A DNA stretch of 40,245 nt from a virus (taxonomy: Duplodnaviria > Caudoviricetes): positions 1 to 40,245 of IMG/VR virus record IMGVR_UViG_3300025018_000269; one strand, 5' to 3'. Numbering within the stretch: position 1 is the stretch's first letter; each line of letters opens with the position of its first letter. The position numbers and the translations under genes were made by a program. Below are positions 3,686 to 20,200 of this stretch, piece after piece. Under the pieces are notes generated by a model. It saw only the letters and a list, made by a program, of their open reading frames with translations. It was not told where the DNA came from and did no database searches.

Positions 3686-4513
3686 TCAAACTATATCCGG
3701 AAACTGCCGGAACATCAGATCGGCCGGGATCGCCGGCAGCGGCCTTGTCTCCCCGCTCATTTGCTTCATCATGAACGGCGTGTTCGTCTTGACACACTCA
3801 TTTCGGATCGAGCGAGCCGCTTCCACATCGATACCCCGCGCGCCCTTCCCGCTTTCTCCGCCGACTATGATCCAGCCAATCTTCGGGCCAATGGCCCCGT
3901 GCATCTTTTCCGGGCCGTCATTGTCCCAGTGACCGGTCAAGGGATTCACGGTGAAGCCGTCGATGCAGATATCATCGAAACGAACGGTACCGAGAAGCGG
4001 CTCCATGGACAGGAAGCGCAACCTGGCTGGCACTGTGAGCAGAACCGGTACCCGTCGATCATATTCGACCTGGTTTTCAGCGGTGCAGCCGATCCAGACG
4101 TTCTCCCATCCATCGCCCCAGTCGGCTGGCAGCATCTTCTTGATGTTCTGCGGGAGCTTCGTGAGCAGCATGAAGATGACGTCCGGGCATTCGCGCATCA
4201 GGTCCCACGCTTCTGCGCGCCACGTGATCGATTTGTGATTGTCGAAGAAATCACTGAGGCTGTTGATGAAGACCCGCCGCCGGCGCCCATGGATGACATG
4301 GAAGATCGCTGCCTGGCGCTGCCATTTGCGGATATCAGCCCAGCCCTGCTTGATATAGGCGCGAACTCCGTGCGGGCCCCATTTGGCGCGGTGCATGCGG
4401 GTGTCCATCAGTCCCTCAGCGTAGCAATGGTCGCATGCGGGGCTGACCTTGGTGCAGCCGGCCCAGAAGTTGGCGGTGCTGTCCGCCCATTCGATGTTCG
4501 TTTGTTCGGCCAT
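3686..4513 (-). CDS. DUF5131 / phage Gp37Gp68 family protein (three-Cys motif, radical-SAM-like)
   Basis: TNIEWADSTANFWAGCTKVSPACDHCYAE, NSLSDFF, LLTK, FLSMEPLLG, WIIVGGESG, FMMKQ. Confidence 0.9.
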   Translation of the reverse strand: MAEQTNIEWADSTANFWAGCTKVSPACDHCYAEGLMDTRMHRAKWGPHGVRAYIKQGWADIRKWQRQAAIFHVIHGRRRRVFINSLSDFFDNHKSITWRAEAWDLMRECPDVIFMLLTKLPQNIKKMLPADWGDGWENVWIGCTAENQVEYDRRVPVLLTVPARLRFLSMEPLLGTVRFDDICIDGFTVNPLTGHWDNDGPEKMHGAIGPKIGWIIVGGESGKGARGIDVEAARSIRNECVKTNTPFMMKQMSGETRPLPAIPADLMFRQFPDIV

Positions 4514-4540
4514 GTCAGGCTCCTTTCTCGATTTCAGTGA

Positions 4541-4747
4541 TCAGTACCCGTAGCTATCGTTGATGTGGCCAATCTCATCCGGCGTGGCCTCCAACGATAG
4601 CTTATGCTCGAGCAGCTGGATGCGCTTTTCGATCATCCACAAGCGCTTTCCGGTGAGCTGGCCTGATGAATAGTCTGGCACAACGGTGGCTCCGAGCAAC
4701 CCGGTCGTGAAGCTTGCGCGGCCATCTGAGATTCCCACTACAGTACC
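4541..4747 (-). pseudogene. 3' half of a phage gene interrupted by IS110
   Basis: GTVVGISDG...DSYGY* joins in frame to the 6325-6080 half when the IS is removed at the ACG core. The ATG at 4846 in the ORF track lies inside the IS. Confidence 0.7.
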
Positions 4748-4761
4748 GTTGTCTAATTGAT

Positions 4762-4985
4762 TTTCCCATAGGCTAGCCATCCTTTTTGTTTCCATCCCGA
4801 TCACCAAATGGTTGTCTTCGAGGTCTGCGAACGGCTGAGGAGCCATATTGTCCGAGCCTTCATGATTGCGGTCAGGCGGATTGAGTTGGACGTCTCTGTG
4901 TCACCGGCGAGGTAGAACCTTCAACAGTACAAACGAGATCGCCCGTTCTGGCTATCGGTCCCGTATTGCGGTTCCCTGTCTGCTG
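4762..4985 (-). ncRNA. Bridge/seek RNA region of the IS110 element
   Basis: Two loops with a repeated scaffold (TGAAGG...ACCTCG) carrying guides that match the target flank (CGGTGAC, GTACT) and the donor junction (AGACAAC, CGCAAT). Exact RNA ends unknown. Confidence 0.75.
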
Positions 4986-6002
4986 TCAGTTCCAGCAGAA
5001 GTCCGTTTCCGATTGCCAAAGCGTGTGAAGCAGGGCTGCCAGCTTACGGGCCACGGCAACCCGTGCGCGCTTGTGGCCTTTGGTCTCGGCCAGCTTCTTC
5101 CCCCATGTCTGCAATGCAAAGGGACGTTTGACCCGGACCAGCAGATTGTTCGCCGCTTCATAAAGCGCGCTGCGCAGCATTGGATCACCCGCCTTGGAGA
5201 TGCGGCCGTTATAGTCCCGTTCCCCCGATTGCGAGCGTCTGGGCGCAAGCCCTGCATAAGCCCCGGCGTCCGCGCTCCGCCTGAACCGTCCCGGATCCTC
5301 GATTGCAGATTTGAAGGTGAGCGCTGTGATCGGCCCGACCCCGGGAACGCTCATCAGCCGCGTTGCCACCAGATCGCTGGCGGCCCGGGCATCCAGCAGC
5401 TTTGATGACAGAGCAAGCTGTGCGTCCAGTGCTTCGATACTCTCGATCAGTGGCATGAACACGGGCCGCAAGTCAGGCCGCTGGGTGAACAGCGCGTCCA
5501 GCCGTTCGCCCCGCTTGCCCGGCGTCGTCACGCGCCCCATGCGCAGGCCGAACAGCTTGAGCATGCCGCGCAACTGATTGGCAAAGCTGCCCCGCGAGCC
5601 GATCAGCTGAGCCCTGATCTTGAGCGCCGCGCGGTCGATATGGGTGGCGCCTGCCTTCATATGCACGCGCTTGTACCAACCGGTGCGGCACAGCTGTGCC
5701 AGGCTCTCGGCATCATTCACATCAGACTTGTTCACCCTGGCAGACAGCGCCTTCTTCGCATGTCGCGCGCAGATGCACACCACCGGCACAGCCCGCTCGG
5801 TCAGGCCGTGATAGAGGAATGTCGAGAGCGGTCCGGTTTCCAGAACTACGCGGGTCAGATCAGCGCAATGCTTGGCCAGCCACTTGGCCAGCACCTCCGG
5901 ATCGCTTGCCACCACATCCCGGCGAACAATAGCGCCGGCATCATCCACCACGCAAATATGTGTGGTCTTGTCACTTACATCCAAACCTGCATAAATAGTC
6001 AT
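4986..6002 (-). CDS. IS110 family transposase (DEDD RuvC-like domain plus Tnp domain)
   Basis: YAGLDVS, VLETG, KSDVNDA, SVPGVGPITA, GLAP..SQSG, GRISKAGD, AVARKL. Confidence 0.97.
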   Translation of the reverse strand: MTIYAGLDVSDKTTHICVVDDAGAIVRRDVVASDPEVLAKWLAKHCADLTRVVLETGPLSTFLYHGLTERAVPVVCICARHAKKALSARVNKSDVNDAESLAQLCRTGWYKRVHMKAGATHIDRAALKIRAQLIGSRGSFANQLRGMLKLFGLRMGRVTTPGKRGERLDALFTQRPDLRPVFMPLIESIEALDAQLALSSKLLDARAASDLVATRLMSVPGVGPITALTFKSAIEDPGRFRRSADAGAYAGLAPRRSQSGERDYNGRISKAGDPMLRSALYEAANNLLVRVKRPFALQTWGKKLAETKGHKRARVAVARKLAALLHTLWQSETDFCWN

Positions 6003-6006
6003 CGGT

Positions 6007-6060
6007 CACTCTCCTTCTTTGGAACCCCTCGCGGGTGATTCCGTATCAAGCAGGAGAGTG
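6007..6060 (-). promoter_or_regulatory. Hairpin sequestering the transposase RBS
   Basis: CACTCTCCT / AGGAGAGTG 9-bp inverted repeat covering the AAGGAG Shine-Dalgarno sequence. Confidence 0.6.
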
Positions 6061-6079
6061 GCTACATCAATTACGCAAC

Positions 6080-6325
6080 GTCACCGATTGCGTCTGAGAT
6101 AGCGCATTCAAATGCTTCCTGGGCGGTAACCTCGCTGGTCCGCACAAAAGGCCCGGTGTGGGGCAAAGAGCCAGTTCCCTTAAACTCTGCGGATGGATCG
6201 TCCAGCGGACTGTATCGGGCTATCGAAGAGCCAAATTCTGTTATCTCGCGGAAAGCACCGCGCTGTGCTTCTCCCCCCAGATCCGCTGCGGCCGCGTGGC
6301 CGATCGTGTCTTTCTTCTTCGCCAT
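6080..6325 (-). pseudogene. 5' half of the phage gene interrupted by IS110
   Basis: AGGAGA RBS, MAKKKDT...SDAIGD; the present stop codon (6071-6073) lies inside the IS inverted repeat. Confidence 0.7.
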
Positions 6326-6345
6326 CGATTTTCTCCTTTTTTCGG

Positions 6346-6540
6346 TCATAGACTCAGGTCTTCAATCTGCTCGTTTTGCGCGGCTTCCGCTCCCGCGCTC
6401 CACAACTCTCCGTTGACGACATCGTCAAGATCGTAGCCAGCCGCCTCACATGCATCGGAAGCATCCATGCCGGCAAAGGGCCCGCGATCATAAGCCCATT
6501 CGTACCCGGCCCTCCATGCTGCTGGCATCGTCATGAGCAA
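6346..6540 (-). CDS. Small acidic hypothetical protein
   Basis: Tiles between neighbouring genes in the leftward operon. Confidence 0.55.
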   Translation of the reverse strand: MLMTMPAAWRAGYEWAYDRGPFAGMDASDACEAAGYDLDDVVNGELWSAGAEAAQNEQIEDLSL

Positions 6541-13764: not shown

Positions 13765-14387
13765 TGGATGCCGCACGGGGAGTCATCGCGTATGACATCG
13801 GCACGAACCTTGGATTTTCAGCCTACAGCCCAAAATTGAAGCGCCCCTATACGGGCGTGATCAGGCTCCCATCGGCGCGGACCGATGGGAGCATGGGGCC
13901 GACTTGGGACCTGATCTGGGAGCACGTCGCTTGGGCGGACCGCAATTTTGGTGGTCTGGGCGCAATCGGGTACGAGAATTTCCTCGTCCCGACCGGTGGC
14001 CGAAAGGATGACGCAACGTCATTCACGACCAGCCCGAAGACCATCAAGACGATGGTTGGCAGCGTTGCGACGATCGAGCATGCCGCCCAGGTTCTGGGAT
14101 TTGAAGCCACGCCTATCCATAATCAGAGCTGGCGCCGTTATTGGCTGGGCAAGCGAAAGTTCGGGGTCAAGCGCGAGATGTGGAAGGCGCTGAGCATCGT
14201 GAAGGCTCAGTCCGTGGGCGTGATGACCGATAACGACGACGAGTCCGACTCGCTGGGGCAGCTGCACTGGCTCCTGAACAAGCTCGAGATAATTCCCCCA
14301 TGGGATTTTGAAGCAGGAAACGACCTGGTCGAGCAGCTCAAGCAGGCGGAGAAATGGCTCAAGGACAATACCAAGGCGGGAAAATGA
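13764..14387 (+). CDS. RuvC-like Holliday junction resolvase
   Basis: VIAYDIGTNLGFS, IGYE, NDDESDSLG acidic catalytic pattern. Confidence 0.75.
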   Translation: MDAARGVIAYDIGTNLGFSAYSPKLKRPYTGVIRLPSARTDGSMGPTWDLIWEHVAWADRNFGGLGAIGYENFLVPTGGRKDDATSFTTSPKTIKTMVGSVATIEHAAQVLGFEATPIHNQSWRRYWLGKRKFGVKREMWKALSIVKAQSVGVMTDNDDESDSLGQLHWLLNKLEIIPPWDFEAGNDLVEQLKQAEKWLKDNTKAGK

Positions 14388-15130
14388 AGAAGAATCAGAA
14401 CACCAGTTCAGCCGTGATGGCGCAAAGAACCGAACCGGCGGACAGCCTCGACTATTTCCCGACGCCGCCATGGGCCGTGCGCGCGTTCCTTTTCTGGCTC
14501 AAGGGCGAGGGCATGATGAACCGGACAGACACGGCTTGGGAGCCGGCCTGCGGCGAGATGCACATGGTCCGCGGCATGCTGGATTATTTCGAAGACGTCC
14601 GGGCCAGCGATATTTTCGATTACAATGATCGGCCGCGGATTGCGCAGACAAACCTGCGGCATGAAATCATCGATTTCACAATCACCGGATGGACAGAGCC
14701 GAAGCGCGACTGGGTATTCACAAACCCGCCGTTCCGCATCGCAAAGCAGTTCATCATGACCGCGCTCAAGGTCGCAAAAAAGGGCGTGGCGATGTTCGTG
14801 CGGACCAGCTTTCTGGAGAGCGGTGACCGTCACCGCGATATATTCTCGCACAATCCGCCGGACTTCGTGGTAATCTACGCGGAGCGGGTCGTGCTGCTCA
14901 AGGGCCGACTGATCCAGGCTGGAAAACCAGATATTTTCAATCTCGACGAAAAAACCGGCCTTCCGCGCCGCGCATCAACCGCGACCAGCTATTGCGTCAT
15001 GGTGTGGCTAAAAGGAGGGGATGGCGACTCCCGGTTCCGCTGGATCCCTGAAAGCCGCCTGGTGTATGAAGCAGACGGCGATTATCCCGAATATACCCAA
15101 GCCGATGTGGATGCGTTTCATGCCGAGTGA
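14384..15130 (+). CDS. Orphan DNA amino-methyltransferase (probably N6-adenine)
   Basis: DYFPTP, WEPACGE (SAM binding), TNPPF (catalytic). Confidence 0.9.
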   Translation: MKKNQNTSSAVMAQRTEPADSLDYFPTPPWAVRAFLFWLKGEGMMNRTDTAWEPACGEMHMVRGMLDYFEDVRASDIFDYNDRPRIAQTNLRHEIIDFTITGWTEPKRDWVFTNPPFRIAKQFIMTALKVAKKGVAMFVRTSFLESGDRHRDIFSHNPPDFVVIYAERVVLLKGRLIQAGKPDIFNLDEKTGLPRRASTATSYCVMVWLKGGDGDSRFRWIPESRLVYEADGDYPEYTQADVDAFHAE

Positions 15131-18725: not shown

Positions 18726-19355
18726 TTGGCCACCCCGATCGATCCCAAAAGACTGGAAAACCTTGAGGCTGCGCTGAAAAAGCACAAGTCAAAGGACCTT
18801 TTGGATCAAAAGCAGCTCGGGGCGATCTATGGCGTGTCTCCCGGCCGGATAAGCGGATTGGTGAAGAACCGGTTCGAGGATTTTCCGCCGGCGCAGCGCG
18901 ATGCCGACGGAAAGCACTGGTACCCGGCCGGCGCCGCGATCAAGGCCATGATCGATTATTGCAAGGACAGTTCGAAGTCGCAGAATCGCAAGCGCGCCGC
19001 GATCGGCAAGATCATGTCGAAAAGCGAGCCAGCGGCGAATGACGACCAGCCGCCGCAACTGACTGCCGCTGATCTGGACCGGATGGCGAGTGCAGCGACG
19101 AAGATCTGGAGGCTCGAGCAGGAGCAGGGAAAATATATCAAGGTTGAGGATGCTGTGTCGGGCTATCGGAGCATATACTCGCTGACGCGGACCGAGATGA
19201 TGGGCTGGCTCAACCAGGTCGACCCGAACGGCGCGCTTCCGCTGGACACCCGCAAGAAAATCGAGACGTCCATCCGCTCCAGCCTGGTCAAGTTGCAGGG
19301 CCTGATCGAGGATCTGAACGCGCTTCCGCCGGATATTGAGGAAGCGGCTGAATGA
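18726..19355 (+). CDS. Terminase small subunit (Nu1-like)
   Basis: N-terminal winged HTH (QKQLGAIYGVSPGRIS), then K..RLEQEQGKYI coiled coil; AAGGA RBS with TTG start. Confidence 0.7.
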   Translation: MATPIDPKRLENLEAALKKHKSKDLLDQKQLGAIYGVSPGRISGLVKNRFEDFPPAQRDADGKHWYPAGAAIKAMIDYCKDSSKSQNRKRAAIGKIMSKSEPAANDDQPPQLTAADLDRMASAATKIWRLEQEQGKYIKVEDAVSGYRSIYSLTRTEMMGWLNQVDPNGALPLDTRKKIETSIRSSLVKLQGLIEDLNALPPDIEEAAE

Positions 19356-20200
19356 ACAACCCGTATCACATCCCGGGCCCGGCCCTGATTTCATTCTCTG
19401 GCGGCCGCACGTCCGGCATGATGCTTTGGAAAATTCTGGAAGCGCATGGTGGAAAACTGCCCGATGATGTGCACGTGGCCTTCGCTAACACCGGAAAAGA
19501 GCATGAGGAAACGCTGCGTTTCGTGAATGAATGCGGTTCGCGGTGGGGCGTCAAGATCCACTGGTTGGAGTTTTCCACTGATCTGCGGCGAGGCGGTGCT
19601 GCCAGCCGATTCGTCGAAGTTGGTTACAACAGCGCAAGCCGAGAAGGCGAACCGCTTGAAAGATTGATCGCGCGAAAAAAAGCAATATTTTCCACGCAAT
19701 CTGGGCGCTGGTGCACCGAGTTTTGCAAGGTCAAAGTGCTCGCCGATTTTATGGAAACCATTGGCCACCGTGAGGGAGAATACACTGAGGTTATAGGCTT
19801 CCGGGCAGATGAGCGCGACCGCGTTATTGAAATGCCAAACGCACGACGCAATGCCAATCGACACTTTTGCTTCCCCTTGGCTGCAGCCGGCATCCGGAAA
19901 TCCGACGTGTTTGAATTTTGGGAATCTCAGCCGTTTGACCTTTGCTTGGAGCGTGGCCTTGGGAACTGCGACCAGTGCCCATTTCTTGCATATAAGGCCC
20001 GGGTTATCCGGGCTCGGCGGGATCCTGAATCCTGCCAGTGGTGGGCAGATAAGGAAACCGCCTTTGACTACAACTTTGCCCGTGAAAGCTTCTCTGATAT
20101 CTTGCGCGATGCACAGCGGAATGCCCTTCTACCATTGGATGATATCGAGCAGGATGCAGCCGAGAGCGAATGTCTCGGTTGGTGTGCAGGTGATATATGA
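19352..20200 (+). CDS. PAPS-reductase / adenine nucleotide alpha-hydrolase family protein
   Basis: PP-loop ISFSGGRTSG, FANTGKE, RWCTEFCK, IGFRADE, FPL, GNCDQCP. Confidence 0.88.
   Translation: MNNPYHIPGPALISFSGGRTSGMMLWKILEAHGGKLPDDVHVAFANTGKEHEETLRFVNECGSRWGVKIHWLEFSTDLRRGGAASRFVEVGYNSASREGEPLERLIARKKAIFSTQSGRWCTEFCKVKVLADFMETIGHREGEYTEVIGFRADERDRVIEMPNARRNANRHFCFPLAAAGIRKSDVFEFWESQPFDLCLERGLGNCDQCPFLAYKARVIRARRDPESCQWWADKETAFDYNFARESFSDILRDAQRNALLPLDDIEQDAAESECLGWCAGDI

What the first reader, a model, noticed from the sequence alone, without database searches (positions are those of the whole stretch)
4762..4985. IS110 bridge RNA whose guides can be read directly and match this insertion site
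Seen on the minus strand: two loops share a scaffold. Loop 1 is GTACT-gtTGAAGG..ACCTCG-c-CGGTGAC (plus coordinates 4926-4930 and 4900-4906). Loop 2 is CGCAAT-caTGAAGG..ACCTCG-a-AGACAAC (4865-4870 and 4811-4817). The empty target reads CGGTGAC-G-GTAC and the circle junction reads AGACAAC-G-TTGCG. CGGTGAC and AGACAAC are identical to the left halves of target and donor. GTACT and CGCAAT are complementary to the right halves, each with a U-G wobble at the same core G. Established: IS110/IS1111 recombinases use such a bispecific RNA, encoded in the 3' end in IS1111-type elements. Inference: this is an intact, programmable RNA-guided recombinase with the right guide before the left guide (opposite to IS621) and a short target of about 12 nt.
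Basis: partly seen in the sequence, partly recalled or inferred. Interest (0 to 1): 0.85.

Follow-up and report, generated by a model that had tools for sequence, protein, structure and literature searches.

The report
RNA-guided jumping gene inside a phage
A bacterial virus carries an insertion sequence of a known family whose tail holds four short guide words that match its own ends and its landing sites and change together with them in relatives, so it likely encodes a guide RNA of the already described bridge type, probably built like the best-studied example but reading the DNA from the opposite strand.

Summary
Window 4750-6081 (minus) is an intact IS1111-group element (338-aa DEDD recombinase, subterminal inverted repeats, 236-nt 3' end) inserted in frame into a gene of a lambda-like phage. 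Four identical copies elsewhere sit in near-identical target words. In relatives the target guides change with the flanks (right guide: 0 of 20,000 permutations reach the observed score) and the donor guides change with the element ends (19 of 19 exact left-donor matches, six variants).

Two corrections. The shared core is AC, not G: the G at both junctions is a coincidence of this site. The right-before-left guide order is already published for IS1111 elements.

Added here: read on the opposite DNA strand, three of four guides have IS621's A-NNN-C-G motif and spacing, and the handshake position covaries with the donor across the group (not in this element). So the reversed order is probably an inverted substrate, not a different mechanism. 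The usual target is a REP-like repeat, sometimes beside a RAYT gene; the phage site is a near-cognate hit. RNA expression, circles and programmability are untested. New member of a known kind; interest 0.4.

The parts
4750..6081 (-). IS1111-group insertion sequence, 1332 bp, with the AC core counted at the left end (7-bp-left/3-bp-right convention); equally 4748-6079 if the core is counted at the right end
   Evidence: Four other contigs carry 4748-6079 with 0 mismatches; laid contigs stop matching at 4748 and 6086
4986..6002 (-). DEDD recombinase, 338 aa; D8, E55, D94, D97 and GLAPRRSQSG with S259 (aligns with the IS621 catalytic serine loop)
   Evidence: PF01548 and PF02371; NF033542 234 bits, cut-off 140; motif positions; alignment to 8wt6
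4888..4944 (-). Predicted target-binding module: outer stem, internal loop, inner hairpin
   Evidence: Outer helix 98% paired, 4 of 9 pairs with changes on both sides, 26 sequences
4924..4931 (-). First target guide, TGTACT plus GT: pairs with the right flank and the AC core on the element's top strand; preceded by A4939/G4934
   Evidence: Covariation with right flanks; GT in 31 of 32 RNAs; A and G invariant in 32 of 32 and 19 of 19
4900..4906 (-). Second target guide, CGGTG plus core AC, identical to the left flank; preceded by A4913/G4908
4898..4899 (-). Predicted handshake dinucleotide of the target loop (AC here; does not match this element's donor GT)
   Evidence: Group-level match to donor +1,+2 in 24 of 45 RNAs against 14.2 permuted
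4796..4876 (-). Predicted donor-binding module with a long inner arm
   Evidence: Helices 67-95% paired, weaker support than the target module
4863..4870 (-). First donor guide CGCAAT (pairs with the element's left end GTTGCG, one U-G) followed by CA, which does not pair with the core
4811..4817 (-). Second donor guide AGACAAC, identical to the element's right end including core; preceded by A4824/G4819
   Evidence: 19 of 19 exact matches over six variants
6059..6073 (-). Left subterminal inverted repeat (outer 8 bp TAATTGAT perfect); also holds the candidate -10 TAGCCA at 6064-6059
4754..4768 (-). Right subterminal inverted repeat; candidate -35 TAGACA at 4755-4750
   Evidence: promoter role inferred
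6080..6086 (-). Left half of the target with the core copy, CGGTG-AC
4742..4749 (-). Core AC and right half of the target, GGTACT (G where the guide specifies A)
6082..6349 (-). 5' part of the interrupted phage gene (likely start ATG 6325 behind an AGGAG site)
   Evidence: frame open across the empty site for 158 codons from ATG 6349 to the stop at 4541
4541..4747 (-). 3' part of the interrupted phage gene
   Evidence: 67 open codons in that frame against 47 and 1 in the other two; no relatives found

Best explanation
This is an IS1111-group insertion sequence whose 3' non-coding end holds four guide words that match its target flanks and its own two ends, and it likely makes a two-loop bridge RNA that would direct the element's DEDD recombinase to join its circular form to CGGTG-AC-AGTRC sites around a shared AC core. 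Shown by sequence and comparison: element limits, intact gene, AC core, guide-flank and guide-end covariation, two-module fold. Inferred from IS621 and ISEc11: the element forms a circle, a junction promoter (TAGACA, 17 nt, TAGCCA) transcribes gene and RNA, one recombinase dimer binds each loop, and strands are exchanged across the core. Inferred here (about 0.7): the RNA has the same build as IS621's, but target and donor are held upside down relative to the transposase gene. The first guide of a loop is then IS621's left guide reading the element's bottom strand, the first cut would fall on the bottom strand just left of AC, and the two bases after CGGUGAC would be the handshake. The usual target is a REP-like repeat of sphingomonad chromosomes (about 0.75); the phage site is a near-cognate word (A to G after the core, tolerated as U-G) that the element hit inside a phage gene.
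For: Identical copies at other sites: left flanks CGGTGAC or CAGTGAC, right flanks AGTGCA, AGTTTA or GGTACT. Right target guide against flank: 14 guide variants, 23 pairs, 4.62 of 6 Watson-Crick matches against 2.41 permuted, 0 of 20,000; left target guide: 6 variants, 10 pairs, 4.00 of 5 against 2.67, 84 of 20,000. At least 7 changes of the left guide on the transposase tree, including L032, which changed both guides and both flanks inside a 100/100 clade. Donor: exact 7-mer in 19 of 19 called elements, foreign words 1 of 95; first donor guide 5.05 of 6 against 3.69, 0 of 50,000. Fold: 47 cells with double changes against 19.8 shuffled; 85% paired against 34-44% for slid controls. IS621 spacing (A43/G48, A67/G72, A150/G155; linker C47) is met by three guides: G at the expected place in 32 of 32 and 19 of 19 each, A five bases before in 30-32 of 32 and 17-19 of 19. 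The unpaired CA after the first donor guide recalls IS621 C130-A131. Handshake matches the donor in 24 of 45 (1 of 20,000 permutations) and the target in 4 of 48. Genome G002 holds 38 copies of exactly the 13-mer that its element's guides specify, control 0, in inverted pairs. RAYT-like gene in 5 of 60 element flanks, three within about 60 bp, one beside an identical copy.
Against: No RNA, circle or activity was observed. Permutation tests treat related elements as independent, so the p-values are optimistic. Within the close clade the donor guides hardly vary (second guide invariant; first guide 3 variants, 3,273 of 20,000); donor support comes from relatives at 45-61% identity, and 6 of 25 distant elements could not be called. 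The first donor guide lacks the A, and its G is at the expected place in only 7 of 19 distant elements. In this element the handshake AC does not match its donor GT (9 such rows), its A matches the target's next base, the wide set alone is not significant (12 of 17 against 11.3), and the donor-loop handshake does not covary with the target overall (5 of 48 against 3.7). The single sequence folds no better than shuffles (z 0.57), and RNAalifold alone recovered only the target module. 0 of 12 repeat loci had a RAYT within 1.5 kb; the RAYT model score was 77.8 against a cut-off of 80. A short target-only RNA suffices for ISEc11, so the donor loop may be dispensable.
Confidence: 0.87

Rival explanations
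1. Seek-RNA model: only the target module guides; the ends are recognised mainly by protein at the subterminal inverted repeats, and the donor-matching words are a relic or help only in circle formation.
For: An 82-nt ISEc11 RNA described as holding the target matches supports transposition better than the 154-nt form (PMC11187229). Donor module fold is weaker; its first guide lacks the conserved A and full core pairing (1 of 19).
Against: The second donor guide tracks six different right ends exactly in 19 of 19 elements and the first tracks left ends; a relic would drift. A/C/G motif invariant before the second donor guide.
Confidence: 0.08
2. Both loops guide, but IS1111-group RNAs really engage DNA in a different geometry from IS621 (circularly permuted loops, top strand cut first).
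For: Siddiquee 2024 conclude the mechanics may differ. The first target guide pairs with the core on the top strand and is followed by TG, complementary to the donor's CA, in 11 of 32 RNAs. This element's predicted handshake does not match its donor.
Against: That dinucleotide varies (AG 12, TG 11, CG 7, GG 2) while the donor is constant. The 8/6 spacings from the conserved G fit IS621 only in the inverted reading.
Confidence: 0.2
3. The matches are chance, or the phage-IS junction is an assembly chimera.
For: L017 joins the window's right flank to another left flank, so chimeric joins of this repeat occur. The left junction is fully bridged only by a run that may be the window's source.
Against: 0 of 100,000 shuffles hold all four words; the flanks rejoin into one 158-codon frame; the right junction is bridged in runs X4 and X5. 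Guide covariation does not depend on this site.
Confidence: 0.02

Closest known systems
IS1111-group seekRNA elements ISEc11, ISKpn4, ISPst6, ISPa11 (Siddiquee 2024, PMC11187229; parts 1-5 of 9 read)
   Same: 3' non-coding region, subterminal inverted repeats, 330-350-aa DEDD protein with GL-P----SG, top-strand match 5' of bottom-strand match, natural reprogramming among relatives; ISPa11 targets REPs
   Different: Alphaproteobacterial clade not tested there; the parts read describe target matches only, whereas here a donor module covaries with the ends
[quoted passage not shown]
   Same: By eye the ISAzs32/ISMex9/ISMno22/ISMpo4 row shares AGLDVS, LEAGPLS and VNKSD motifs with this protein; donor guides predicted in a multi-loop
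   Different: Identity not computed; its guide order and orientation are in a figure I could not see; the passages describe manual inspection, not an experimental test
IS621 bridge recombinase (Durrant 2024; Hiraizumi 2024 PMC11208158, sections 7 and 11 and passages read; PMC13626964 passages)
   Same: Two loops, four guides, 2-nt core, A/G protein-binding motifs five apart, unpaired A at the end of the first donor guide, handshake after the second guide, REP target
   Different: RNA at the 3' end; core AC instead of CT; substrate inverted relative to the gene; longer inverted repeats; long inner arm in the donor module; distant protein (E 4e-8)
REP-targeting IS110-family elements IS621, ISPpu9, ISPa11 (PMC12288879 passages)
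   Same: Insertion into dispersed palindromic repeats at a fixed dinucleotide
   Different: Target is an AATTA-CGGTGAC / AATTC-CGGGGAC repeat of sphingomonads, lacking the GTAG head of classical REPs (recalled feature)

Membership tests
IS1111 group of IS110 family | DEDD (RuvC-like) plus PF02371 domain with GL-P----SG, 330-350 aa | tested here: met
   338 aa, both Pfam domains, NF033542, GLAPRRSQSG
IS1111 group of IS110 family | Subterminal inverted repeats (7-17 bp) | tested here: met
   8 bp perfect, 11 of 14
IS1111 group of IS110 family | Terminal extensions 7 bp left, 3 bp right | tested here: met
   12 bp lie between the perfect repeats; this is 7+3 if the outermost pair is counted as a G/G mismatch, and that pair is G/C in L111, L114, L116, L120
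IS1111 group of IS110 family | Long non-coding region downstream of the gene | tested here: met
   236 nt 3' against 79 nt 5'
IS1111 group of IS110 family | Top-strand target match 5' of bottom-strand match | tested here: met
   4924-4931 precedes 4900-4906 on the minus strand
IS1111 group of IS110 family | Circular intermediate with junction promoter | tested here: inconclusive
   No joint listed in 8 runs of contigs, which cannot show absence; TAGACA-17-TAGCCA by inspection, TAG conserved in 52 of 52 left ends
Bridge RNA (IS621 type) | Target-binding loop whose guides covary with target flanks | tested here: met
Bridge RNA (IS621 type) | Donor-binding loop whose guides covary with element ends | tested here: met
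   (19 of 25 distant elements callable); not resolvable within the close clade
Bridge RNA (IS621 type) | Conserved A and G five apart before each of four guides | tested here: inconclusive
   Met for three guides, not for the first donor guide
Bridge RNA (IS621 type) | Shared 2-nt core included in guide pairing | tested here: met
   Core AC in three guides; the first donor guide does not pair with it, as A131 does not in IS621
Bridge RNA (IS621 type) | Handshake bases pair with the non-cognate DNA | tested here: inconclusive
   Target loop 24 of 45 at group level but not in this element; donor loop no overall signal
Bridge RNA (IS621 type) | RNA is expressed, binds the recombinase and is reprogrammable | not testable with these tools
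   Needs small-RNA sequencing, pull-down and recombination assays
REP/REPIN with RAYT (target repeat) | Dispersed short repeats in inverted pairs, linked to a RAYT gene | tested here: inconclusive
   Repeat in 25 of 201 genomes, reversed control in 2; inverted pairs; RAYT-like gene in 5 of 60 element flanks, 0 of 12 repeat loci

The most novel reading that the evidence does not exclude
IS1111-group and IS621-type bridge RNAs share one architecture, and the published reversed guide order is only an inverted DNA substrate. IS1111-group recombinases would then have a working, separately programmable donor loop, cut the element's bottom strand first, and have their handshake directly after the second guide, which gives design rules for a whole untested branch of bridge recombinases. 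This clade retunes its guides to follow variants of a RAYT-linked sphingomonad repeat and can ride phages through near-cognate sites.
Probability: 0.65. Interest if true: 0.55.

Novelty: new member of a known kind. Interest (0 to 1): 0.4.

Why it matters
The element itself is one more member of a described family. Its value lies in an open point between two 2024 papers: whether IS1111 elements use a donor-binding loop and the IS621 mechanism, or a target-only RNA with different mechanics. The relatives gathered here give covariation support for the donor loop and a base-level prediction (first strand cut, handshake position) that one assay can test. My search of solved structures matched only IS621 and ISCro4. 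A compact AC-core system with many natural guide variants is also a usable starting set for genome editing in alphaproteobacteria.

Tried and rejected
Core = G or CG: rejected. Handshake read directly after the first target guide: rejected as a general rule. Other copies in the own record: none, single 40-kb contig. Viral collection: no relative of the transposase or of the upstream gene part. Uninterrupted form of the phage gene: not found in 401 genomes, among longer proteins, or in Pfam/PHROGs, so the empty site rests on the open frame only. Sequencing runs: no RNA holder listed; no circle or empty-site joint listed in 8 contig sets; neither is evidence. Rfam: no match at E up to 1. Single-sequence folding uninformative. 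One search miscalled the ends of L113, L119, L121 and L122, and its four-word shuffle used a wrong word; both were redone. The scaffold-anchored guide call misplaced several guides and stopped early; it was replaced by an alignment. The 52 of 52 left flanks ending in AC follows from my search pattern and is not used as evidence. Duplicates left out of counts: L001, L016, L044-L048, L055, L106; left out of the tree: L009, L043, L050, L103. The target repeat's words were not in the text of the TnpA-Y1 survey, and no paper held IS1111, RAYT and target together. Earlier scan findings: none.

Full report
Setting. The window is a 40,245-base virus record with one copy of the element. It carries terminase, portal, protease, head, tape-measure, replication and annealing genes of a tailed phage. 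The closest named relatives of the transposase (74-89% identity) come mostly from Sphingomonadales genomes, so the host is probably a sphingomonad (inference). The gene at 4986-6002 (minus) is a 338-aa IS110-family recombinase with D8, E55, D94, D97 and the SQSG loop.

The observation. In 100,000 dinucleotide shuffles of the non-coding stretch, 55 held both 7-mers and none held all four words. With the element removed in a script, the flanks give one frame of 158 codons ending at the stop at 4541; the other two downstream frames stop after 47 and 1 codons. The right junction is bridged by contigs of runs X4 and X5; the left is bridged in full only by X1, a possible source, and by fewer than 31 letters on the element side in X2 and X5. 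These aquifer runs may be one campaign.

Ends and core. Four other contigs carry bases 4748-6079 with 0 mismatches. Their left flanks end CGGTGAC (three) or CAGTGAC (one). Their right flanks begin AGTGCAC, AGTGCAG, AGTTTAC, or the window's own GGTACTG (L017, probably a chimeric join). The G after the left junction therefore belongs to the element, and the G after the right junction belongs to this site; over 37 copies with both ends, the base agrees in 17. The shared core is AC. The first target guide runs on as GT, the complement of AC, in 31 of 32 distinct RNAs.

Target guides. From 43 copies with a complete 3' end (32 distinct RNAs), guides were read by column and compared with flanks. Right side: 14 guide variants, 4.62 of 6 matches to own flanks against 2.41 permuted, 0 of 20,000. 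Left side: 6 variants, 4.00 of 5 against 2.67, 84 of 20,000. Examples: guide TATTGT with flank ACAATA; CGGATC with GATCCG; CCGTTAC with CCGTTAC. The tree of 28 proteins needs at least 7 changes of the left guide. Relatedness makes the p-values optimistic, and mismatches at distal positions are common.

Donor guides. In the close clade the right end and its guide are invariant, and the other guide has too few variants (3,273 of 20,000). Among 25 elements reaching down to 43% identity, ends were called for 19. All 19 hold their own right-end 7-mer (AGACAAC, AGAGAAC, ACAGAAG, AAAGAAG, AAACAAC, AGATGAC) in the non-coding region; a foreign word was found in 1 of 95 tests. The first donor guide scores 5.05 of 6 against 3.69 permuted, 0 of 50,000. 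The end caller required an inverted repeat and a shared core but did not look at the RNA.

Fold. A two-module structure that I drew on a 26-sequence alignment has 85% of cells paired against 34-44% for slid controls, and 47 double changes against 19.8 shuffled. The target module is strong and was also found by RNAalifold; the donor module is weaker (67-95% per helix) and rests on my drawing.

Guide order. Siddiquee 2024 (PMC11187229; I read parts 1-5 of 9) state that in IS1111 elements the top-strand match precedes the bottom-strand match, the reverse of IS110, and that the mechanics may differ. Durrant 2024 (PMC11208160; passages and supplement rows) predict 3'-end bridge RNAs in 93% of IS1111 elements, with donor guides in a multi-loop.

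A reading that goes further. In IS621 each guide follows a protein-bound A and G five apart. Eight bases lie between G48 and the core of the first target guide, six between G72 and the core of the second; the first donor guide ends C130, with A131 unpaired to DNA (PMC11208158, sections 7 and 11 and passages; spacings are my count). Here the first target guide has G, 8 bases, core; both second guides have G, 6 bases, core. G is invariant in 32 of 32 and 19 of 19, preceded by C, with A five before in 30-32 of 32 and 17-19 of 19. The first donor guide ends in unpaired CA in 30 of 32. The RNA thus reads as IS621's if the DNA is turned over. This predicts a first cut left of AC, where the IS1111 7/3 convention places the insertion point, and a handshake directly after CGGUGAC. 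That dinucleotide equals the donor's first two bases in 24 of 45 RNAs (14.2 permuted, 1 of 20,000) and the target's in 4 of 48; the donor-loop equivalent never equals its own donor (0 of 45), as IS621 requires. Against: the first donor guide lacks the motif in distant elements, this element's handshake does not match its donor, the distant set alone is not significant, and two distant rows were misaligned by 1-2 bases. I did not find this reading in the passages read after searches, but I could not see the figures, one picture-only supplement, or the Perry and Pelea Science papers.

Natural target. Most flanks carry AATTA or AATTC before the guide match. A 15-letter empty-site pattern occurs in 25 of 201 genomes of the order, against 2 for the reversed control. 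G002 holds 38 copies of the exact 13-mer specified by its own element's guides, in inverted pairs. A RAYT-like gene lies in 5 of 60 element flanks (82.5 kb screened), three within about 60 bp, but in 0 of 12 repeat loci. A REP-like target is likely; REP targeting is known for IS621, ISPa11 and ISPpu9. The phage has no perfect guide site; the insertion used a near-cognate word in a gene.

Mechanism, steps marked. Shown: ends, core, guide matches, covariation, intact gene, several insertion sites. From established family biology: circle, junction promoter, RNA processing, tetramer, strand exchange (cut-out or copy-out is disputed; abstract of 10.1101/2025.10.25.684509; passages of PMC13626964). 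Inferred here: inverted substrate, bottom strand first, handshake position, REP-like target. The -10 candidate lacks the final T, which I recall being common in alphaproteobacteria.

Verdict. Real, well supported, and a new member of a known kind. Interest 0.4; 0.55 if the inverted-substrate reading holds and is not already drawn in the unseen figures.

Noticed in passing
L037:286-1656: The right end is followed by 18 bases and then the left end again, as in a circle or tandem that includes a piece of target repeat; may be an assembly artefact.
   Followed up: no
L017: Identical element with the window's right flank but a different left flank that also appears as a loose end in run X9; a chimeric join or an IS-mediated phage-host rearrangement.
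   Followed up: partly
window 4300-6500, run X1: The whole 40-kb record is one contig with no other copy of the element laid in that run, which would fit phage DNA carrying the element without its host; X1 may be the window's source.
   Followed up: partly
run X13 (organism A): A run labelled as one organism holds the element with no differing letter over 4748-6086 and none of the phage flanks; a possible cultured source.
   Followed up: no
L084:1370-1640 and 2320-2600 (G002): Clusters of inverted pairs and partial tandem copies of a GGGGACAGTATAC repeat, REPIN-like; family not identified in the papers searched.
   Followed up: partly
window 4747-4760 and 6066-6081: The predicted circle junction is nearly palindromic about the right edge of the core, and target repeats are flanked by AATT words like those in the inverted repeats; possibly a protein-read preference.
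   Followed up: no
L007, L009, L033, L100: The inner hairpin of the target module carries insertions of 10-14 bases without loss of guide-flank match, marking a tolerant site for engineering.
   Followed up: no
window 4541-4747 and 6082-6349: The interrupted phage gene (about 150 codons) has no relative in any search run; it lies just upstream of a DUF5131 gene.
   Followed up: yes
window 19352-20200: Phosphoadenosine phosphosulfate reductase-like gene directly before the terminase; also a DNA methyltransferase at 14354-15130.
   Followed up: no
L127: A Mesorhizobium relative whose two junctions do not share a core and whose right end differs from its donor guide at one base; possibly decayed.
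   Followed up: no
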